DNA from: a virus
DNA: 64,000 bases
Strand: one strand, 5' to 3'
Virus record (IMG/VR): IMGVR_UViG_3300035670_000055
Location: 32,001 to 96,000 of that record
The position numbers and the translations under genes are program-made. Positions 3,269 through 59,573 of this stretch are shown here, piece by piece. The notes below the pieces were generated by a model. It did no database searches and was not told the origin of the DNA. It was given only the letters and a program-made list of their open reading frames with translations. Each line of letters opens with the position of its first letter. The stretch's first letter is position 1.

Positions 3269-6200
3269 ATGGATTTTTGTAAAATTGGAATAGATAACGC
3301 AGTAAATAGAGCTATTAAAAATAATCCAGATTATTCTTATGATGAAAAAAGTGGAATTATTGAAATAAGTGATAATCCTAACAAAGATTTAAATCAATAC
3401 ACATCAATTAGATTTGCAAAAGGAATAGCTGCACAAATTAATAAATTTATAAACGATGGAGAAAAGGCAATTGGAAGAATTGCCTATTCTTCTTTTTATA
3501 AAGGAAGAGGAGTTGTAAGAATTGTTCCTACTAATTCACAATTAGAATTAATTAATTCTAATGAAGAAAAAAAATATATAGAATTAGAAGATAAAATACA
3601 AGAAGAATTATTACAAGAAGAATTTAGAAAACTTGCAGAAGAATCTAATACATATCTGGATGAAGAAAAAGAAGTAGTTTATGAAGATCCTTTATTACAA
3701 TTATCAGATGAAAATTTAAAACCTGTCTCTCCAAAAATGTTAAAATTTGTAAAAGAATTTATTAAACAGATTGGTGTAGATTATCAAAAGGTTGATAAAA
3801 TTGTTGTAAATGGAAAAGTTATAGATGCTAATGGTATTGCTCGAATGATGAGTAAACTTATTCAAGTGGTTGAAGGAAAAGAATCTGTAGCTCTTCCAGA
3901 AGAAGCTATGCACTTTGCTGTAGAGATTATAGAACAAACTAATCCAAAATTATTTGAACAAATGTTGAAAGATATAAATGGAGAGGAAATTTATAAAGAT
4001 GTATTAGAACAATATGGTAAAAATCCATATTATCAAAAAGATGGTAAACCAGATATAAGAAAATTAAAAAAAGAAGCTATTGGTAAATTACTAGTAGATA
4101 AAGTTTCCAGCATAAAAGCACAAACTTGGTGGGATAAAATTGTAAAATTCTTAAAAGAACTATTTAATAAACCACAGATGGATGGTGTAGATAGTCTTAC
4201 ACAATTTGCAGAAATGATTGTATCTGGAGAAGATTTTGGCACTGTAAATGATATTAAATCTTTAGAAGATTATTTCCAATTAAATGAACAAGATAAAGTA
4301 TTTAATAAATTAAAAGATTTAGATAATCAAATAACAAAAGAAGATGATGGTGTAAATGATGATGGAGATCCAAGACAAAGTTATTTTATAGGTGATAAAA
4401 AAATTAAATATAGAGTTACAGATTTTGTAAGTGATTGGTATTTAAAAATATTTGGTAATGAACAAACAGAATATCAAAAAAGACTAGCAGAATTAAAAGC
4501 AGAAGAAGGAACAAAAGGACATTATCATTTTGAAAAAGCATTTGATACATTTGTAGATTCTGATACAGGATTACTGAGAGAAGATTTTTTAGAAGATGAT
4601 GATCAATATTTATCTACTTTATCACAGGTAGATAAAGATGTGTATGCTACATTAAAAGAAAATTTAAGAGATAGATTATTATCTTTTCCTGAAGGAAGTA
4701 AGTTCTTAAAAGAAACAAAAATATATGATGGTAAAGAAACTGCTGGTACAGTGGATTTATTAATTGTAGAACCTTCTGGTAAAGTTAGTATTATTGACTG
4801 GAAATTTATAGACATAAATACTGATAAATATGAAGATGTTCCTTGGTATAAAGTTAAAGCTTGGAATCTTCAAATGGAAAAATATAGAGGTATTCTTACT
4901 AAGAATTATGGAGTAAAAGAAGAAGATTTTAAGCAAACAAGAATGATACCTATTCTTGCTATGTACACAGATGCTGATTATCAGGGACAAAATCTTCCTA
5001 AATTAAGAGGAATTAAAATAGGTTCTGTAAATGTTGATAATATTAATGAAGATTATTTACTATATGTAGGATTTAAAGAAAGAACAGGGGATGAAAAAAT
5101 TGATAATTTATTAGATAAAATGAATAGTGTTTATTCTAAAATATCTAATGAAAAAGTATCTCCACAAGATAGACCTTTAAAAAATGAACAACTAAACTCT
5201 TTATATAAGGCTATTAGACACTTAGAAATAAAAAAAGATATTATCCCTTTAATTAATCAAGGAAAGGTGCTAAATAAACAAGTTAGTAATTTTATTAAAA
5301 AATACAATGATAATATAAAAGATAAATCTAAAGAAGAATTAGAAAAAGAAACAATTAATGAGTTTGCTGGAATGATTAGAGTGCACATGGAAGCTCTACA
5401 ACCATATTTAGGTATAAGGCAATTAAAGTATTTATTAAATGAAACTAATCCTGAATTTAATGAAATAAAATCAAAATTAAGAGATACGATAGAAGATGTA
5501 CAGGATTATCTGGATCAACTAGAATCTATAGATAAAGAATTTGGTAAAAAGTTTGTAGGAGCTAGTTACACAGCAGAAAAAGTTGTAAAAGGTATTACTA
5601 GATGGTTTGGTAATGCTGCTACAATTCAATTAGAGAATTTACAAAGATTATTTACATTAGCTAATGAAGCAACAGCAATTTCTAATTTCGAAGTGAGCGA
5701 TGAAGTAAAAAAATTAGAAGAACTTAAAGAAAAATATATTAATTGGGCTAGGTCAAAAGGATTATCTACAAAAGATTATTTTAAAATGATAATAAAGAAT
5801 GACAAAAATGAGCTGATTAATCAATACGATTCTAATTTTTATAAAGAATTAAAAACTGCAGTTGCTAAAAAAGATTTTAGATGGATATTAGATAATGTGG
5901 ACAAAGTCGAAGTTATTAAAAAAATAAAAGAACAAGAAGAAAGAGAAATAGACGCAGCTTTAAACTATCCTGTTGTTGGTTCTGAGGAGCATGTAAAAGC
6001 AGAAATCAATAGAAAAATAGCCAAGATTAAAGATAAATATGATGTTTCTACATCTACATCTAAAGGTTGGTTACAAGAGCAATTTATAAAAATACCAACG
6101 GAGAAATGGGAATCTCAGGAATGGAAAACATTACATGAAAAAGATTCTTCTGGAAATTATGTAAATCAACCAGCTATAGATTTTTATAATTATATTGTAG

Positions 6201-8266
6201 AAAAAAATAAGTTATATAAAGAAATAGGATATTTAACAGGTAAATCAGCTAGAACATTTCTTCCTTGGATAAGAAAAGGATTTTTAGAAGGAGTAATATT
6301 AGATGGAAAACCACAAGGTTCTCTAGATCAGTTTTTAAGAAATATTTCTGTAGATGAAAATGAAACTGCTTATGGACAGATAGATCCTATTACAGGAAAA
6401 GTAATTGATACTATTCCTATTCATTTTGTAAATCAATTAGATGGAAAATATTCTACAGATTTATTTTCTACAATGTTTTTATATAATGAATTTGCAATTA
6501 AATATAAAAATCTTTCTCAAATAGAAGAACAAGCTAGATTATTGTTAAGGGCAGAACAAAATAAACAATCTATAATGACTTCTATGTTTGGAAACGTTAT
6601 AAAAAAGGGAGAAGGATTTGATTTTAATAATAATAATTTAGAAAATACAAAACTTTATGAATCATTCATGAAGTCTATTATTTATCAACAAAAATATATT
6701 AATGATTCTGAATTTGACATAATAATTGGTAAAATATCTGGATTTGGTAAAAAATTTAATGATAAATTAGGAATGAAAATATTTCCTGAAGCTATGGAAT
6801 CTAGATATTTAACAGTAAATAAAACATTAGATCAAATGAATAGAGCTTTCCAGTTACAGGCGTTAGGACTAAATGCTCTTTCTTCTATTTCTAACATGTT
6901 TGGTGGTACAGCTAATGCAATGATTAATGCTGGTAAATATTTTACTAAAGATGACTATTTAAAAACACAAGCTAAATTTCTTTGGGAAAAATTACAAGGA
7001 GATGAAAATGCTGGTAAAATATTAGCTGCTGTAGATTATTTTGCTCCATTTGTAGATAATTATAACAAAGAAGCTAAAAAGAAATTATCTCTTATGAAAT
7101 TAACTCCAGAAGGGATACAAGATTTTCTTATGGTTGGTCTTAGAAAAGGAGATGAAATGATTCAATATATGAATGCTTTTACGTTTATAAAGAATATGAT
7201 TGTTGTAGATGGACAGGTAAAAAATGTTAGAGAATATTTAAGAAGTACAGATGAGTACAAAGATTTTTATGCTGGTAATGCAGAGCAGAGAAAGGAAAGA
7301 AAAGAAAAATTTGAAGAAGATGTTAATAAGTTAATTGAAGAAAAAGGATTATTAAATGTCTCTAAACTATCAGAAAATGGCACATTAGAAATACCTGGTA
7401 TAGAAAGAAAATCTGATTCTATAATAGAACAAAGAAGAATCATACAACAGTTTACTTCTGATGCATTAGGTTCTTTAACAGAAGAAAATAGAAGATTGAT
7501 TAACATGAATGTATATGGTTCTTCTTTAATGGTATTTAAAAACTGGATTCCTAGATTGGTAGATGTTCGTGTAGGAGGATTAAAGTATAATGCTGCATAT
7601 CAAGCTTATGAATGGGGTAGATATAGAACATTTTATAGTATGCTTATTCCAGATATATTAAAGACTATTAAGAGCCTCACAGGAGCTGTAACTGGAAATA
7701 GTGATGTTTGGTTAGAACAAGTTAGATCAATGTTTGAAAAACAAAAAGAACAATATTTTAATAGTACAGGGAAAGAATTAAAAATGACAGAATCAGAATT
7801 TATTTCACTTGTAAATCAAAATATTAAAAACCAAGCATTAGATTTAATGATTTTAACAACATTATTAGCAATTGGTACAGTAGCAAAAGCTATGGCTCCA
7901 GATGATGATGAAGATGAAAATGTAAAAAATGTTTATAAATTTATGTTAAAAGCTACAGATAAAGTGACAGATGAGGTTTCTTATTTTTATAATCCTATGA
8001 CACCATTTAATTTAATTTCTACAAAAGGTGTGTTTCCTTCTGTAGGAATTTTAAATAATTATGCTAAATTCTTAAGAGATTTCGCTTTAGAAAATTATGG
8101 AATGATTATTAATGATGATGAAATTATAGATGATGCTAAACCAATTAAATATTTAATGAAATCTTTTCCTGTATCATCACAGGCTGCTTCTTATTTACCA
8201 ATGTTCTATCCAGAACTAGCAAAAGATCTTGGTATTAGAATGCAATCTACTTATGGTGTTAGATAA
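3269..8266 (+). CDS. Large virion cargo/ejection protein with zincin-like and PD-(D/E)xK nuclease-like domains
   Basis: 1665 aa, directly after the vRNAP. EEAMHFAVE...KEAIGK is zincin-like. GTKGH...E...AGTVDLL...IIDWK...LQMEKY is a PD-(D/E)xK signature. Hydrophobic segment LMILTTLLAIGTVA near the C-terminus. Confidence 0.7.
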   Translation: MDFCKIGIDNAVNRAIKNNPDYSYDEKSGIIEISDNPNKDLNQYTSIRFAKGIAAQINKFINDGEKAIGRIAYSSFYKGRGVVRIVPTNSQLELINSNEEKKYIELEDKIQEELLQEEFRKLAEESNTYLDEEKEVVYEDPLLQLSDENLKPVSPKMLKFVKEFIKQIGVDYQKVDKIVVNGKVIDANGIARMMSKLIQVVEGKESVALPEEAMHFAVEIIEQTNPKLFEQMLKDINGEEIYKDVLEQYGKNPYYQKDGKPDIRKLKKEAIGKLLVDKVSSIKAQTWWDKIVKFLKELFNKPQMDGVDSLTQFAEMIVSGEDFGTVNDIKSLEDYFQLNEQDKVFNKLKDLDNQITKEDDGVNDDGDPRQSYFIGDKKIKYRVTDFVSDWYLKIFGNEQTEYQKRLAELKAEEGTKGHYHFEKAFDTFVDSDTGLLREDFLEDDDQYLSTLSQVDKDVYATLKENLRDRLLSFPEGSKFLKETKIYDGKETAGTVDLLIVEPSGKVSIIDWKFIDINTDKYEDVPWYKVKAWNLQMEKYRGILTKNYGVKEEDFKQTRMIPILAMYTDADYQGQNLPKLRGIKIGSVNVDNINEDYLLYVGFKERTGDEKIDNLLDKMNSVYSKISNEKVSPQDRPLKNEQLNSLYKAIRHLEIKKDIIPLINQGKVLNKQVSNFIKKYNDNIKDKSKEELEKETINEFAGMIRVHMEALQPYLGIRQLKYLLNETNPEFNEIKSKLRDTIEDVQDYLDQLESIDKEFGKKFVGASYTAEKVVKGITRWFGNAATIQLENLQRLFTLANEATAISNFEVSDEVKKLEELKEKYINWARSKGLSTKDYFKMIIKNDKNELINQYDSNFYKELKTAVAKKDFRWILDNVDKVEVIKKIKEQEEREIDAALNYPVVGSEEHVKAEINRKIAKIKDKYDVSTSTSKGWLQEQFIKIPTEKWESQEWKTLHEKDSSGNYVNQPAIDFYNYIVEKNKLYKEIGYLTGKSARTFLPWIRKGFLEGVILDGKPQGSLDQFLRNISVDENETAYGQIDPITGKVIDTIPIHFVNQLDGKYSTDLFSTMFLYNEFAIKYKNLSQIEEQARLLLRAEQNKQSIMTSMFGNVIKKGEGFDFNNNNLENTKLYESFMKSIIYQQKYINDSEFDIIIGKISGFGKKFNDKLGMKIFPEAMESRYLTVNKTLDQMNRAFQLQALGLNALSSISNMFGGTANAMINAGKYFTKDDYLKTQAKFLWEKLQGDENAGKILAAVDYFAPFVDNYNKEAKKKLSLMKLTPEGIQDFLMVGLRKGDEMIQYMNAFTFIKNMIVVDGQVKNVREYLRSTDEYKDFYAGNAEQRKERKEKFEEDVNKLIEEKGLLNVSKLSENGTLEIPGIERKSDSIIEQRRIIQQFTSDALGSLTEENRRLINMNVYGSSLMVFKNWIPRLVDVRVGGLKYNAAYQAYEWGRYRTFYSMLIPDILKTIKSLTGAVTGNSDVWLEQVRSMFEKQKEQYFNSTGKELKMTESEFISLVNQNIKNQALDLMILTTLLAIGTVAKAMAPDDDEDENVKNVYKFMLKATDKVTDEVSYFYNPMTPFNLISTKGVFPSVGILNNYAKFLRDFALENYGMIINDDEIIDDAKPIKYLMKSFPVSSQAASYLPMFYPELAKDLGIRMQSTYGVR

Positions 8267-15390: not shown

Positions 15391-15933
15391 ATGAAAAAAG
15401 AAATTTGGAAACCAGTAAAAAATTATGAATCTTATTATGAAGTTAGTAATGAAGGAAATATCAGATCAATTGAAAGAATTGTTGAACTCCCAATACATCA
15501 ATATCTTAAAAAGCAAAAAATGATAAAACAATTTAAAGATCGTCGTGGGTATTTTCATGTAAAGTTGTATAATGGACTTGGAGAATGTAAATCATTAACA
15601 ACTCATAGAATAGTTGCTTTAACTTTCATAGACAATCCAGAAGGTTTAATAGAAGTTAATCATATTGATCATAATAAGCATAATAATCATGTTGATAATC
15701 TTGAATGGATTACTAGGAGTGATAATATAAAACATTCATATATTCATAGAGATCCTAAAACTTATAAAGGCAGTGGGAATAAAAATGCTAAGTTAACAGA
15801 AGAGCAAGTTAAAAATATTAGAAAAGAATATAAAAATAATAAAATTACATATAAAGAACTTGCTTATAAAAATAATGTTGGAGTAACATTAATAGGATAT
15901 ATTGTTAATAATAAAATATGGAAACATGTCTAA
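15391..15933 (+). CDS. NUMOD4-HNH homing endonuclease
   Basis: EIWKPV..YE..YEVSN.G (NUMOD4); HRIVA..F...VNHID.NK.NN...NLEW...N (HNH); C-terminal HTH; own TATATTTG box at 15366-15373. Confidence 0.9.
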   Translation: MKKEIWKPVKNYESYYEVSNEGNIRSIERIVELPIHQYLKKQKMIKQFKDRRGYFHVKLYNGLGECKSLTTHRIVALTFIDNPEGLIEVNHIDHNKHNNHVDNLEWITRSDNIKHSYIHRDPKTYKGSGNKNAKLTEEQVKNIRKEYKNNKITYKELAYKNNVGVTLIGYIVNNKIWKHV

Positions 15934-55979: not shown

Positions 55980-57573
55980 TTAATATTCATTTAATAATTG
56001 AACAATTGTATCTTTTATATTATATATTTCTTCTAATTCTTCTTTCATTTTATTTGTAATATAATTACAATATAACATAATAGATTTTATTTGTTGTTCG
56101 TTAAATTTTTTATTTTCCTGATATGTAAATGTTGCTGCATCTGGATTAAATGTAACAATTAGTCTTTCTTTAGATTTTCTATCCATAAAAACTAATTCAT
56201 AAGTATCATACACTTCTTCTATTTCTTCAATAGGATTTAACTCTTCATCAACAATGTTGTTAATGTCTAATTTTCTTAAAATTGTTTCTGTTTTCATTTT
56301 TAATATATTTTTTAATTATTTGTTTATATTTTTATTGAAAATTATTATCTATTTATAATAATCATTCCGTATTTTGGATGATATTGAATAGCACATTTAT
56401 ATTCATTAGCCAACTGATAAAATTTCTCAAGAAATTCTTTATGATTTTGATTAGTTATGTTATTATTTAATTCAATTTTTTGTCCTTCTAAACTTGCTTT
56501 TCGTAAGTCTATTTCAATTCCATGCTTTATCCCTCTATCCCAAGTTTCTCTCATCTCTTGTTTAGAATACTTATTGTTTCCAAATAATAAATTTAATGTA
56601 CTATCTTTTTCTTGAAAAGATGTATCATCTTTCATTTCTTCTTTAAAAATATGTTCAACTCTTAAATTCATTTTTGATTTTATTTAATATAATTTGTTTT
56701 GCTTTTTTGTATTCTTCTGTATTTTCTTTAACTTCCATTACAACATCTTTTGGTGTGGTGAAATCCATTTCTATATCAGGATATTCTAACAGTCCTAATA
56801 TATAATCATTCTCTAATTCTTCTAATACCAAATATACATTTGGATCTTCATCTTTAAAATATACAAGTTTCATAATTTTTATTGCTTATTGCGATATGCT
56901 ATATTTTGCATTTAAAAAACGTAATGCTTTTTATTTAATCTTGTAAATCAATAATAACCATCTTATAAACACTGATTTTAGCAATCAAAGGTAATGCTTG
57001 TTGTGCTGTCATTGTTTTAATTTTATTTTCCATATTACTGATGTAACGCTTATATTTTTCAATTAATTCATTATTGTTTTTCATAATTTATTTCTTTACA
57101 AAAATTAAAGGATTACGGAATGTTTTTTCTTCGGCTTCTTGCCATACTTTTTTTATCCCATTTGACTTAAAAGTATCACCCACACTTTCATAACTTATTA
57201 CTCTTTCAAGAGATATAGGGTTTTCCAACCAATAAAACCCTTTTGATTCAATAGCTGATTTGAATGATTTTAAGGCTTCATATAAAACTTCATCATCGTA
57301 TTTAGCCCTATAATCTCTATACATTATACTCTCTTCTAAATTTGAATAGGATTCTTCTACCAACTCACTTGCAATTTCTTCTGTGAGTTCTGAGCCTTTG
57401 CAGATAACCTCAAATTTGTCTAAAGTTGAAGCGTTAAGTTTAATTTCTTCATTTCCTATTTTTAGATACTTGCATTCTTTATTGATAAATTCATAATCTG
57501 CTAATCTTGGAATTTTAACAATAAGCACGTCTTTTTTTAATTTTAGTTCTAATATTTTCATATTTTTATCCAC
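55980..57573 (-). CDS. Hypothetical genes (55980-56297, 56345-56671, 56655-56873, 57088-57573)
   Basis: Co-directional small ORFs with no recognisable catalytic motifs. Confidence 0.55.
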
Positions 57574-57576
57574 TTT

Positions 57577-57819
57577 CTACAAGTGGGAAGTTTTAAGGTT
57601 AAAAAGGACAATATTTTTTTTAGGTATTTTCTCTAATTTAGATTTTAGGCTTTTTAATGAGTGAAATTTACCTTTTATGTTATATCCAATGCTTCCATTA
57701 TTATAAACTTGTTTTATTTCACGATTTGTTTTAGAGTTAAAACATTTATCATCAGAAAACACATAATTTTTAGCAAAATTTAATCTATATTTACATAGAT
57801 ACTTTACTGTTATAATCAT
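57577..57819 (-). CDS. 80-aa basic protein adjacent to the attI-like end of the cassette array
   Basis: MIITVKY...CFNSKTNREIKQV.NNGSIGYNIKGKF.SL..L...LEKIP; starts 35 nt from the first GTT core. Confidence 0.7.
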   Translation of the reverse strand: MIITVKYLCKYRLNFAKNYVFSDDKCFNSKTNREIKQVYNNGSIGYNIKGKFHSLKSLKSKLEKIPKKNIVLFNLKTSHL

Positions 57820-57829
57820 TGTTTTAGCC

Positions 57830-57864
57830 TTTGTGTTGTTTCGTCTATATTTGTGTTGGCAGCA
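57830..57864 (+). other. Putative attI-like site (array boundary)
   Basis: Core GTTGGCAGCA (57855-57864) with no hairpin upstream; 9-nt direct repeat tttgtgttg at 57830-57838 and 57850-57858. Confidence 0.45.
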
Positions 57865-57867
57865 AGT

Positions 57868-58131
57868 TTATTGAACCCACCACTCAACGACTTTACCAGT
57901 AACTCGGTCAACAATACAAGCCTTTGCAACTGTATCATCAACCAATGCTTTATATTCTTGTGCTTCTTTCAATGTTTTGACAGGTTCGGCAATGTTTTCA
58001 ACTTTCTTAAATCCGACTTCTGCAAAGCCTTTAAAAGAAATATTTACGACATAACGAAAACCTGCTGCCAACACCTGCTTTACAATAGCAGGGCTGACAT
58101 CTACATTTTGAGCATTTGTAATTCTATTCAT
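57868..58131 (-). CDS. Cassette 1 gene, hypothetical; starts inside the attC loop
   Basis: 87 aa; stop lies 3 nt from the core site at 57855-57864. Confidence 0.65.
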   Translation of the reverse strand: MNRITNAQNVDVSPAIVKQVLAAGFRYVVNISFKGFAEVGFKKVENIAEPVKTLKEAQEYKALVDDTVAKACIVDRVTGKVVEWWVQ

Positions 58132-58197
58132 CTTCTGTACTTATTTGAAAGTTAGTAATTCTAATCCCTGCCATCGTAAAGCATTATACCGTTGTAG
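58066..58197 (+). repeat. attC-like site 1 (132 nt)
   Basis: TGCCAAC-acc-tgctttacaatagcaggg ... ccctgccatcgtaaagca-ttatacc-GTTGTAG; 18-bp arms with 2 mismatches. Confidence 0.85.
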
Positions 58198-58203
58198 GAA
58201 ATG

Positions 58204-58530
58204 CTACAACTCTACAGCATAGCGTTCTTTTTCTTTTTTATAAAGATTTTTAAAGCTACCATTGGAAATAACTTTATTAAAACTATCCTTTTTTAATAAA
58301 ATTTCAGCATTTAATAAAGCGTTTCCTGCCATTCTTTTAATCTCAAAAACACCACCACTTAAACTTAATTTTATTGATTTTTTTTGATTATTATTTTCTC
58401 CATTTCCAATAAATGCAGTCCACATTGTAATTCCATTTTCTCGATGTTCAACAGTTATAAAATCTGCACTTTCAATATTAGCAGACATTGGAGCATCTAT
58501 TATTTTTAAAACTTTATAATTTATTTTCAT
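58204..58530 (-). CDS. Cassette 2 gene, hypothetical
   Basis: 108 aa, bounded by GTTGTAGGAA (58191-58200) and TTCCTACAAC (58576-58585). Confidence 0.7.
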   Translation of the reverse strand: MKINYKVLKIIDAPMSANIESADFITVEHRENGITMWTAFIGNGENNNQKKSIKLSLSGGVFEIKRMAGNALLNAEILLKKDSFNKVISNGSFKNLYKKEKERYAVEL

Positions 58531-58578
58531 TTTTATAATTTTTAGTTGTTAATATTTTTGTTTCCTTTCCCGCACTTC

Positions 58579-58658
58579 CTACAACACTATATTTGCAAAA
58601 ACGGCTCTGAAAAAACTTTGTGGATATCGCCGTATTCGCAAATACAAAACCGTTATCT
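58579..58658 (+). repeat. attC-like site 2 (80 nt)
   Basis: CTACAAC-acta-tatttgcaaaaacggc ... gccgtattcgcaaata-caaaacc-GTTATCT; 16-bp arms with 2 mismatches. Confidence 0.85.
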
Positions 58659-58695
58659 GTAATAGAGCCAAAGCTTTATTTTTTACTACTATTCG

Positions 58696-59019
58696 TTAAT
58701 AAAGATTATGTTTTTTAAGTATCTTTTTTAACTTTTCGTTTTCTTCATATAGCACATTAAATCTTGTCATTGCACTATCCAAAATTTTTAGTAAAGCATA
58801 ATTATCTATTAAGATTGGTTTATTTGCTAAACCTCTATATTTTACCATATTCAAAATATTTATTGAATTTTTAAATTCTTTTGTTTCGCTTTCATTTCCT
58901 ACGATAACATAACAATCATTTTTTTCTGAAATCTCTTTTATTAATGTTGAAGTTCCAGAACTTCTGTGTCTAATCATAAAATCATAAACACTCTTAATTA
59001 TTTCTTCGTTTTTTGACAT
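58696..59019 (-). CDS. Cassette 3 gene, minimal P-loop-like protein
   Basis: RHRSSGTSTL (Walker A-like), YVIV, PILIDN (Walker B-like). Confidence 0.55.
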   Translation of the reverse strand: MSKNEEIIKSVYDFMIRHRSSGTSTLIKEISEKNDCYVIVGNESETKEFKNSINILNMVKYRGLANKPILIDNYALLKILDSAMTRFNVLYEENEKLKKILKKHNLY

Positions 59020-59089
59020 TATTATATTTTTTATTAATTATTTAAAGTTCGCTTTCAGCTCTCATTTGCCATTGCTAAAAAACTTCTTC

Positions 59090-59170
59090 GCATAACATCG
59101 GTTTGGTTCTATGGCGTGGAAAACACCTTGCGCATACACGCCACAGAAACCAAGCCTTTTAACGTTAAAA
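59090..59170 (+). repeat. attC-like site 3 (81 nt)
   Basis: GCATAAC-atc-ggtttggttctatggcgtg ... cacgccacagaaaccaagcc-ttttaac-GTTAAAA; arms pair with one extra base and 2 mismatches. Confidence 0.85.
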
Positions 59171-59407
59171 ACGTTCATCGTCATCTTTTAATTTATTTGT
59201 TGAAAAGACTACTCTCAAAATAGCCGTAATTAATAAAAAAGGTAAAATAAAAGAAATTGATGCTGTTGGTGAATTGTTACAGCAACCGTCACCATCCCAA
59301 TGCCCGTTTCCTCCGTGTGCAATTGAAATTAAATGCCCTGGAGGACAATTATTTGGATGTTGTTTTGGAGGTCTTGGTATTTCTGAATTTATAAATATAT
59401 CACTCAT
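59165..59407 (-). CDS. Small Pro/Gly/Cys-rich protein with C-terminal TM helix
   Basis: 80 aa; the TAA stop lies inside the core site of attC-like site 3. Confidence 0.6.
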   Translation of the reverse strand: MSDIFINSEIPRPPKQHPNNCPPGHLISIAHGGNGHWDGDGCCNNSPTASISFILPFLLITAILRVVFSTNKLKDDDERF

Positions 59408-59435: not shown

Positions 59436-59573
59436 TTCCTGTGACAGGATTCGAACCTGTATGTTATCTTCAACTTTTTTGTTGTCTAATAGTTTGACAA
59501 TCTGATTTGTATAAGACTTGCAAATCTAATACTCATTTGATAACCATGTGTCTACCAATTCCACCACACAGGA
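59436..59573 (-). ncRNA. tRNA-like RNA (Leu-type D arm) with a 70-nt insertion replacing the anticodon loop
   Basis: Acceptor TCCTGTG/CACAGGA+A; D arm TGGTGGAATTGGTAGACAC; T arm ACAGG-TTCGAAT-CCTGT; stem GTTATC/GATAAC enclosing 59469-59538; no encoded CCA. Confidence 0.75.

What the first reader, a model, noticed from the sequence alone, without database searches (positions are those of the whole stretch)
57577..57864. attI-like end of the array, with an 80-aa non-integrase gene in the intI position
Seen: the leftmost core (GTTGGCA, 57855) has no attC hairpin upstream. It has a 9-nt direct repeat (tttgtgttg, 20-nt period) around GTTTCGTCTATAT, and an 80-aa basic ORF starts 35 nt away and reads away from the array. 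Established: attI sites are non-palindromic, attI1 carries direct repeats, and intI usually lies next to attI reading away from the cassettes. Inference: this may be a minimal phage platform in which a small DNA-binding protein sits where the integrase would be (for example recruiting or regulating a host recombinase). The protein is far too short and lacks the RHRY tetrad.
Basis: inference. Interest (0 to 1): 0.78.

Follow-up and report, generated by a model that had tools for sequence, protein, structure and literature searches.

The report
Docking end of phage gene-cassette array
The 35 bases and the small gene at 57577-57854 are the constant end of a row of swappable one-gene cassettes in a large phage. 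The same 74-residue DNA-binding-type gene sits in this exact place in more than 50 other viral contigs, which is where a bacterial integron would keep its integrase.

Summary
The features described are at the stated coordinates. GTTGGCA at 57855 is a true cassette boundary. An unrelated 44%-GC viral contig carries cassette 1 at 95% identity, and the similarity stops exactly there. The 9-nt direct repeat is real, but it is not beyond chance and is absent from the closest relatives.

The main prediction held. The 80-aa ORF belongs to a family of at least 246 clusters, nearly all 72-78 aa. In 55 non-redundant loci its ATG lies 25-35 nt (mode 31) after a cassette end of the form ATK-N5-YAAC. Hairpin sites lie upstream of it (51) and almost never downstream (4). 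It is almost the only gene these loci share.

The protein models confidently as a small beta domain, closest to the NUMOD4-type DNA-binding domain of HNH homing endonucleases. Rare relatives fuse it to GIY-YIG-type nucleases.

The 115-kb phage encodes no tyrosine or serine recombinase, so the enzyme is unknown and the protein's role is inferred.

This scan has noted the same kind of array on other DNA, reportedly beside Xer-type recombinases; I did not test that. In print I found only one site of this type, called attC in Polaribacter phage P12002L, and that site failed the IntI1 assay.

The parts
57577..57819 (-). 80-aa ORF, a member of a 72-78-aa phage protein family and a stand-alone NUMOD4-like DNA-binding-type domain. 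This copy has a 7-aa C-terminal extension because the usual stop after ..PF is lost.
   Evidence: 246 clusters at 50% identity. AF2 pLDDT 83.7. VIA Z 5.8 to I-HmuI residues 1-63. BFVD and Atlas leads to HNH/NUMOD4. L017 shows the normal stop.
57820..57854 (-). 35-nt leader, the constant non-cassette side of the terminal junction (docking, attI-like position). It is homologous to the 35-nt leaders of L017, L023 and L071.
   Evidence: Relatives share the leader but carry different cassettes directly upstream.
57855..57866 (-). Terminal 12-nt box of cassette 1 (minus strand CTTGCTGCCAAC followed by the junction). It pairs with 58061-58072.
57830..57858 (+). The two TTTGTGTTG copies, 20 nt apart. 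The second copy spans the junction. The repeat is not conserved in relatives.
57855..58190 (-). Cassette 1, with the 87-aa ORF at 57868-58131. The ATG lies in the hairpin loop. Stem arms are at 58076-58093 and 58166-58183.
58191..58651 (-). Cassette 2, with the 108-aa ORF at 58204-58530. End boxes are at 58191-58204 and 58572-58585.
   Evidence: The similarity to L015 ends at the 58190/58191 junction.
58652..59160 (-). Cassette 3, with the 107-aa ORF at 58696-59019. Its hairpin site is at 59093-59166. The end boxes pair only weakly.
   Evidence: The same hairpin is 92% identical in L017 but heads a different cassette there.
57565..57591 (-). 27-nt intergenic stem-loop element that supplies the TAG stop of this copy of the ORF.

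Best explanation
Positions 57820-57854 plus the 80-aa gene form the constant end of an integron-like array of three mobile one-gene cassettes (57855-59160).

Read on the gene-sense strand, each cassette has this layout: a junction G, a 5-7 nt spacer, a 16-20 bp imperfect stem whose loop holds a promoter-like motif and often the ATG, a 3-4 nt spacer, a GTTR-N8 box, the ORF, and a final ATK-N5-YAAC box that pairs with the cassette's own GTTR box. Cassettes are exchanged at YAAC|, and the last junction lies 35 nt before the ATG of the 80-aa gene.

The gene encodes a stand-alone NUMOD4-like DNA-binding module of the homing-endonuclease type.

My reading, which is inference: the protein binds the leader and junction DNA and marks, guards or regulates that docking point. 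Strand exchange is done by an enzyme that this phage does not encode, such as a host or co-infecting-phage recombinase.

Shown here: the boundaries, the pairing rule, the fixed position of the gene family and the fold class. Inferred: DNA binding at the leader, any role in recombination and the identity of the enzyme.
For: Boundaries:
- L014 (44% GC) matches only window 57855-58183, at 95.4%.
- L015 matches up to the 58190/58191 junction and then carries a different hairpin cassette.
- L009, L010 and L011 are 99.8% identical for 5.2 kb from the junction onward and unrelated upstream.

Pairing rule:
- In 59 non-redundant units, the GTTR box shows 2.78 mismatches against the end of its own unit over the 8 variable positions. 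It shows 5.27 against the same hairpin's 5' side, and 5.20 +/- 0.16 when unit ends are permuted (0 of 2000 permutations reached the observed value).

Sites:
- There are exactly 3 in the 115-kb genome, against about 0.1 in shuffles.

Gene family at array ends:
- Of 45 distinct leaders, 26 have YAAC exactly 31 nt before the ATG.
- The terminal 12-mer has its inverted copy upstream in 15 of 31 loci, against 1 of 164 control ORFs (p 4e-13).
- There are 51 sense-strand sites upstream against 4 downstream.
- It is nearly the only gene shared between the loci.
- 23 metagenome contigs break within 400 nt upstream of the gene, against 6 downstream (p 0.002).

Fold:
- pLDDT is 83.7.
- The I-HmuI N-terminal domain scores Z 5.8, with the next hit at 2.7.
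- The BFVD list is dominated by HNH and NUMOD4 proteins.
- Relatives fused to GIY-YIG or MUG113 domains exist.

No recombinase:
- The genome, rated 100% complete by CheckV, has no Phage_integrase, Resolvase or Y1_Tnp match.
Against: - There is no binding or recombination data.
- Polaribacter phage P12002L has arrays of the same type, with a leader-like sequence after the last junction, but no homologue of the gene. The protein is therefore not needed for an array to exist.
- Related loci share only the roughly 270-nt leader-plus-ORF module. Similarity stops at the stop codon as well as at the junction. This also fits a gene that moves on its own.
- Pfam NUMOD4 is not matched by sequence in any of 24 members, and Foldseek against the PDB gave nothing.
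- The one published site of this hairpin type, P12002L_attC1, did not recombine with IntI1, so the chemistry is unknown.
Confidence: 0.5

Rival explanations
1. The leader alone is the docking site, and the 80-aa protein is a passenger with an unrelated job, such as an early regulator or counter-defence factor. On this reading cassettes pile up there only because the first roughly 15 nt of the leader resemble a recombination half-site.
For: In P12002L the array ends in AAC followed by a leader-like A-rich ..ATAAAAC stretch, with no such gene. The leaders share a conserved A/T/A at positions +7 to +9 and a second AAC box.
Against: The gene is nearly the only one conserved across very different phage contexts, always at 25-35 nt from the junction. 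The leader is never seen without the ORF in the 55 loci. The fold is of a DNA-binding type.
Confidence: 0.25
2. The gene is a nuclease-less derivative of a free-standing homing endonuclease. It would be a selfish or 'immunity' DNA-binding module that lodges at array ends, and its neighbourhood varies because homing-type repair drags flanking DNA along.
For: It has a NUMOD4-like fold. Rare fusions to GIY-YIG or MUG113 domains exist. The module is mosaic, with sharp borders on both sides. A GIY-YIG endonuclease gene is itself a cassette in L077.
Against: Of 246 clusters, nearly all are 72-78 aa and well conserved with no nuclease domain, so the gene cannot home by itself. Homing does not explain the unit-specific end pairing or the hairpins. 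The variation lies on one side only.
Confidence: 0.15
3. There is no site-specific recombination. On this reading the hairpins are promoter/terminator or RNA-processing modules like the PeSLs of T4-type phages, and genes are shuffled by homologous recombination between similar hairpins.
For: The loops carry a shared promoter-like motif and the start codons. The hairpin of window site 3 is 92% identical to one in L017 that heads a different cassette. PeSL precedent is in PMC2839356 and PMC4122927.
Against: Unit-specific covarying end boxes with invariant YAAC and GTTR are not part of the PeSL model. Independent transfers break at exactly the same base. A transcript started in the loop cannot form the stem.
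Confidence: 0.07
4. It is a classical integron end: an attI served by a bacterial IntI, with canonical attC sites.
For: The geometry and the cross-unit core pairing mimic integrons. HattCI called one such hairpin an attC in P12002L.
Against: There is no intI in the genome. Only YAAC and GTTR of the 7-nt cores are conserved. The stems are 16-20 bp. The ORFs are inverted. P12002L_attC1 failed with IntI1.
Confidence: 0.03

Closest known systems
Integron platform (intI, attI, attC cassette array)
   Same: There is a constant end without a hairpin, followed by one-gene cassettes. Each cassette's first bases pair with a box in its own folded site. Junctions fall at G|TT (AAC| on the other strand). 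A gene next to the constant end reads away from the array. The better-folding strand is the one equivalent to the attC bottom strand.
   Different: There is no tyrosine recombinase next to the array or anywhere in the phage. The neighbouring gene encodes a 74-80-aa beta-domain protein. Only YAAC and GTTR of the cores are kept. The paired end boxes are 12 nt and the stems 16-20 bp. Spacers are 7 against 3 nt. The ORFs point toward the constant end and start inside the site's loop, next to a promoter-like motif.
CALINs in virulent phages (Qi et al. 2023, PMC9892861), notably Polaribacter phage P12002L
   Same: P12002L carries the same architecture. Its published 'attC1' is the same hairpin as in locus L003. 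Cassettes often encode DNA methyltransferases.
   Different: The paper does not describe the cross-unit 12-nt pairing, the loop promoter and ATG, a constant end or any associated small gene. P12002L lacks the gene. attC1 was the one site that failed with IntI1.
PeSL promoter-stem-loop modules of T4-type phages (PMC2839356, PMC4122927)
   Same: Both are short structured promoter-bearing modules between small accessory genes in plastic regions of virulent phages, and both are linked to gene shuffling.
   Different: PeSLs work through sequence homology between copies. They have no unit-specific paired ends, no invariant YAAC/GTTR junctions and no constant end gene.
Free-standing homing endonucleases with NUMOD4-type DNA-binding domains (I-HmuI, 1u3e; Seg-like GIY-YIG enzymes)
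   Same: The fold of the 80-aa protein resembles the I-HmuI N-terminal DNA-binding domain. Rare relatives carry a GIY-YIG or MUG113 domain. The gene is a compact intergenic module scattered across otherwise unrelated phage contigs.
   Different: This protein, and nearly all of the family, have no nuclease domain. There is no sequence match to Pfam NUMOD4. Its position is tied to cassette-array ends.

Membership tests
Integron | An integron integrase gene (tyrosine recombinase with the IntI-specific insert) beside the array | tested here: not met
   There is no PF00589 match in the whole 115-kb record, which CheckV rates 100% complete. My own HMM built from 10 tyrosine recombinases found none next to arrays in 55 loci.
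Integron | attC sites: R''/R' cores RYYYAAC and GTTRRRY, short L boxes with extrahelical bases, and recognition by the attC covariance model | tested here: inconclusive
   Only YAAC and GTTR are conserved. The stems are 16-20 bp with one conserved mismatch. IntegronFinder and HattCI were not available. Published HattCI output called one family member an attC.
Integron | Each cassette's first bases are complementary to the R'' box of its own site, which is the signature of excision as circles | tested here: met
   59 units show 2.78 mismatches, against 5.2 in controls; 0 of 2000 permutations reached the observed value.
Integron | A non-palindromic attI where cassettes join, next to a constant gene | tested here: met
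   The leader is constant while the proximal cassettes differ in L009/L010/L011, L017/L023, L024-26, L038/42/44 and L057/61/64. Insertion at this site has not been shown.
CALIN (two or more attC sites, no intI nearby) | At least two attC sites by the IntegronFinder model and no integrase within 4 kb | tested here: inconclusive
   Three sites and no integrase were found, but membership of the attC model was not testable here.
NUMOD4 (PF07463) | Sequence match to the Pfam model | tested here: not met
   None of 24 family members matched at E up to 1.
NUMOD4 (PF07463) | Fold of the N-terminal DNA-binding domain of HNH_3 homing endonucleases | tested here: inconclusive
   VIA gave Z 5.8, rmsd 2.4 A over 56 residues to 1u3e_M residues 1-63, with the next hit at Z 2.7. 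BFVD hits are HNH or NUMOD4 proteins at E 5e-3 to 0.3. The nearest named Atlas cluster has NUMOD4 in 10% of its members.
Free-standing homing endonuclease | A nuclease domain (HNH, GIY-YIG, LAGLIDADG or similar) | tested here: not met
   The protein is 80 aa with a single beta domain. Only 3 longer relatives were found, two of them with GIY-YIG-type domains.
PeSL | Homologous promoter plus stem-loop copies flanking the variable genes, with exchange by homology | tested here: inconclusive
   A promoter-like loop motif is shared by some sites. However, the three window hairpins are unlike each other, and the junctions are base-precise.

The most novel reading that the evidence does not exclude
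Phages of Bacteroidota run an integrase-free version of an integron. In it, a 74-residue DNA-binding protein of the homing-endonuclease type defines the docking site, playing the attI-side role of IntI. It would hand folded single-strand cassette sites to a recombinase or nickase supplied in trans. That would make it a new kind of site-selecting subunit for gene capture.
Probability: 0.3. Interest if true: 0.85.

Novelty: new variant of a known kind. Interest (0 to 1): 0.7.

Why it matters
How virulent phages gain and swap small accessory genes, such as DNA methylases and other counter-defence genes, is largely unexplained. Here there is a base-precise cassette system with a recognisable constant end and a conserved, very small partner gene that recurs in dozens of unrelated viral contigs.

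If the protein acts at the docking site, it would separate site choice from catalysis in an integron-like system. It would also give a simple handle for finding such arrays in viromes: search for the 74-aa family. Finally, it would explain why assemblies break at these loci.

If the protein turns out to be a passenger, the leader itself is still a defined docking sequence to test.

Tried and rejected
- Pfam and PHROGs on the 80-aa ORF and the cassette ORFs gave nothing.
- blastn and tblastn against GenBank phages gave no match.
- A sequence profile against the PDB gave nothing significant, and Foldseek against the PDB gave nothing.
- hhalign of the family against the phage's own HNH_3 protein showed no relation.
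Viral-contig scans for them brought only one unfused relative.
- I looked for a recombinase. The genome has no Phage_integrase, Resolvase or Y1_Tnp match. The only tyrosine recombinase near any family locus (L052) is an ordinary Arm-DNA-bind_5 lysogeny integrase. The integrases of the L015 and L077 phages lie far from the arrays.
- I considered HNH_3 endonucleases as the shared enzyme. They are the only proteins common to this phage and P12002L, but they are absent from one of two further complete array-bearing phages, so this remains a weak lead.
- I considered the leader as a decayed hairpin arm. It shares only a 7-9 nt resemblance (AAAGGCT) with the type-3 hairpin start and has no opposing arm, so I rejected this as unsupported.
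- I considered the tRNA-like gene at 59436-59573 as the other array border. It was not followed up.
I did not verify this: the large ORFs have no PHROG match, and what did match were RNR, rIIA/B, thymidylate synthase, a helicase and PolA.

Full report
**Observation.**
The window is part of a single 115,492-bp viral record with 26.7% GC, rated 100% complete by CheckV. It encodes PolA, ribonucleotide reductase, rIIA/B and related functions. From 19 kb to the end of the window, all genes lie on the minus strand.

- two TTTGTGTTG copies, at 57830 and 57850;
- GTTGGCA at 57855;
- an 80-aa basic ORF at 57577-57819 (minus strand) whose ATG is 35 nt away (pI 10.0).

The 48-nt spacer has no hairpin. 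The three spacers to its right hold strong imperfect hairpins framed by AAC and GTT.

**The array.**
A structure-aware scan asked for AAC, a spacer, a stem of at least 10 bp, a loop, the returning stem, a spacer and GTTR. It finds exactly three such sites in the whole genome, all on the minus strand: 58069-58193, 58582-58654 and 59093-59166. First-order shuffles give about 0.1.

The minus strand, which is the gene-sense strand, folds better because several pairs are G.T. The ORF of cassette 1 starts inside its hairpin loop.

**The boundary at 57855 is real.**
- The 87-aa protein of cassette 1 has a 97%-identical copy in an unrelated 44%-GC viral contig, L014. At DNA level L014 matches only window 57855-58183, at 95.4%, and diverges directly after ..YAAC on the sense strand.
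- L015 matches cassette 2 up to the 58190/58191 junction and then continues with a different hairpin that heads a cytosine-methylase cassette.
- The 12 nt that end each unit pair with a GTTR-N8 box just after that unit's own hairpin, not with the box across the hairpin. Over 59 non-redundant units from many contigs, the 8 variable positions show 2.78 mismatches to the unit's own end. The comparison values are 5.27 for the same-hairpin partner and 5.20 +/- 0.16 for permuted ends, and none of 2000 permutations came close.
- No unit pairs perfectly, and 25 have exactly one mismatch. This points to one conserved non-Watson-Crick position.

This cross-unit pairing is the signature expected of cassettes that leave and enter as circles, as in integrons.

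**The 80-aa gene family.**
Searches found 13 viral loci, 38 clusters at 90% identity, 246 clusters at 50% identity, 53 metagenome loci and 4 MAG contigs, including Bacteroidetes and Chitinophagaceae bins. Nearly all members are 72-78 aa and end in ..PF. The window copy has lost that stop and runs 7 codons further into a 27-nt stem-loop element.

The family's position relative to arrays is very consistent:
- In 42 distinct leaders, the sequence [A/C]T[T/G]-N5-[T/C]AAC ends 31 nt before the ATG. The distance is 35, 28 or 25 nt in some lineages, and 35 nt here.
- That terminal 12-mer has a GTT-starting inverted copy with at most 1 mismatch within 1.6 kb upstream in 15 of 31 loci, against 1 of 164 control ORFs (Fisher p 4e-13). 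Allowing 2 mismatches gives 22 of 31 against 12 of 164.
- Hairpin sites on the sense strand number 51 in 94.8 kb upstream and 4 in 160 kb downstream.
- All-against-all BLASTP of neighbouring ORFs shows the family as the only gene common to the loci. The next most frequent family is DNA methyltransferases, which sit in the cassettes.
- Close relatives keep the leader but differ in the adjacent cassette. L009, L010 and L011 are 99.8% identical downstream for 5.2 kb. The same holds for L017 against L023 and several other sets.
- Metagenome contigs end within 400 nt upstream of the gene four times as often as downstream (23 against 6, p 0.002). This fits population-level variation on the array side.

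**What the direct repeat is.**
Its first copy consists of the last four bases of cassette 1 plus the first five of the leader. Relatives with other cassettes and slightly different leaders lack it, and such 9-mers are common in this AT-rich genome.

What recurs across lineages is an A/T-rich core at leader positions +7 to +9 and a second ..ATAAC/ATAAAC box 7-20 nt inside the leader. A similar stretch follows the last junction of the P12002L array.

**The protein.**
AlphaFold2 with the family alignment gives a confident all-beta domain with a short helix (pLDDT 83.7). Three lines of evidence point to the same fold class:
- An alignment against 48,161 PDB representatives puts the N-terminal DNA-binding domain of the HNH homing endonuclease I-HmuI first, at Z 5.8 and 2.4 A over 56 residues, with the next hit at Z 2.7.
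- Foldseek against viral models returns weak hits that are mostly HNH endonucleases and NUMOD4 proteins.
- The nearest named cluster in the ESM Atlas carries NUMOD4 in 10% of its members.

Pfam NUMOD4 is not matched by sequence. Three longer relatives exist. P0040 has a GIY-YIG N-terminus, just under the Pfam cut-off, and P0041 has a MUG113/T5orf172 domain.

I therefore read the protein as a stand-alone DNA-binding module of the homing-endonuclease kind. That I-HmuI's N-terminal domain contacts DNA rests on my own knowledge of the 1u3e structure.

**Mechanism.**
Shown:
- base-precise cassette borders;
- covarying unit ends;
- a constant end whose neighbour is this gene.

Not shown:
- who cuts and joins the DNA;
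- what the protein does.

The phage has no tyrosine recombinase, serine recombinase or Y1 transposase. Its one GIY-YIG gene and one HNH_3 gene lie far from the array.

My preferred reading is that the protein binds the leader or junction and marks, guards or regulates the docking point, while an enzyme supplied in trans does the strand exchange.

Three observations weaken this reading:
- P12002L has the same arrays without the gene.
- Related loci share only the roughly 270-nt leader-plus-ORF module, with similarity ending at the stop codon. The gene could therefore be a mobile, nuclease-less homing-endonuclease derivative.
- The loops carry a shared promoter-like motif, which recalls PeSLs.

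**Literature and earlier notes.**
Qi et al. 2023 (PMC9892861) reported attC clusters without an integrase in virulent phages. Their P12002L_attC1 oligonucleotide is a hairpin of this family, identical to the one in L003, and it was the only one of six sites that IntI1 failed to recombine. PeSL papers describe homology-driven shuffling in T4-type phages. I found no paper on crAss-like phages with attC sites, and none on a small gene at array ends.

Notes from this scan on other genomes describe the same array type in Bacteroidota phages. They report genes pointing toward a docking site that, in many contigs, lies just before a small Xer-type recombinase gene. I confirmed the orientation in my own loci. 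I could not test the recombinase claim, because none of my 55 loci has such a gene beside the array. If the claim holds, the 74-aa gene occupies the recombinase's slot.

**Verdict.**
The core and the geometry are real and significant, but the repeat is not. The array type is not new to this scan and was touched on in print. The conserved 74-aa partner gene at the docking end appears undescribed.

Noticed in passing
window 59436-59573 (-): A tRNA-Leu(CAA)-like gene has an intact acceptor, D and T arms and an insert of about 51-80 nt at the anticodon region. Rfam tRNA scores 36.4 bits. ARAGORN finds it only in intron mode. It lies just beyond the far end of the array.
   Followed up: partly
window 57565-57591 (-); L015 3709-3748 and 3964-3991; L017 about 2879-2908: A 27-nt stem-loop element (..CCCACTT GTAGA AAGTGG..) lies about 10 nt before start codons. 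It is 100% identical in otherwise unrelated contigs. In the window it supplies the stop codon of the extended 80-aa ORF.
   Followed up: partly
window 57855-58183 and L014 3949-4277: Cassette 1 is 95% identical at DNA level in a 44%-GC viral contig, against 27% GC here. That contig otherwise looks like a transposable (Mu-like) phage by its ATPase-type ORFs (by eye). This suggests recent transfer between very different phages.
   Followed up: partly
window 58061-58093; L015 about 4440-4470; L017 1545-1575: Where the ATG lies in the loop, the 3' stem arm plus the GTTR box encode K-(P/Q)-V-L-x-A at the N-termini of three unrelated proteins: an 87-aa ORF, a cytosine methylase and an 84-aa ORF. The site doubles as coding sequence.
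   Followed up: no
hairpin loops: window 58095-58165 (-); L009 about 520-580; L011 about 290-340: The loops share a motif, ..ATTAGAATTAC-AA...TTTCAAATAA.., 15-25 nt before the ATG. It resembles a Bacteroidota -7 promoter box (from my own knowledge), so the cassettes seem to bring their own promoter.
   Followed up: no
L017 1050-1444 against window 58190-58585: An L017 unit has the same GTTR box plus 5' UTR (84% identity) and the same 3' end (91%) as window cassette 2, but an unrelated ORF and a different hairpin. The end boxes and the cargo can therefore be uncoupled.
   Followed up: partly
L017 2915-3416: In the closest relative, two extra small ORFs lie between the 73-aa gene and the homologue of the window's 161-aa ORF (57088-57573). 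This is an indel with no hairpin sites.
   Followed up: no
L077 (reverse strand) 6096-7216: One cassette in a 9-site array encodes a 308-aa GIY-YIG homing endonuclease. A TnpB-like ORF lies about 1 kb beyond the array.
   Followed up: no
window 59165-59407 (-): An 80-aa Cys/Gly/Pro-rich ORF sits in a local GC peak (49%), directly before the first hairpin. Its stop codon lies inside the ..TTTTTAAC junction box.
   Followed up: no
window 15391-15933 (+): An HNH_3 homing endonuclease is present. Endonucleases of this type are the only proteins shared at E < 1e-4 between this phage and Polaribacter phage P12002L, the other complete genome examined that carries such arrays.
   Followed up: partly
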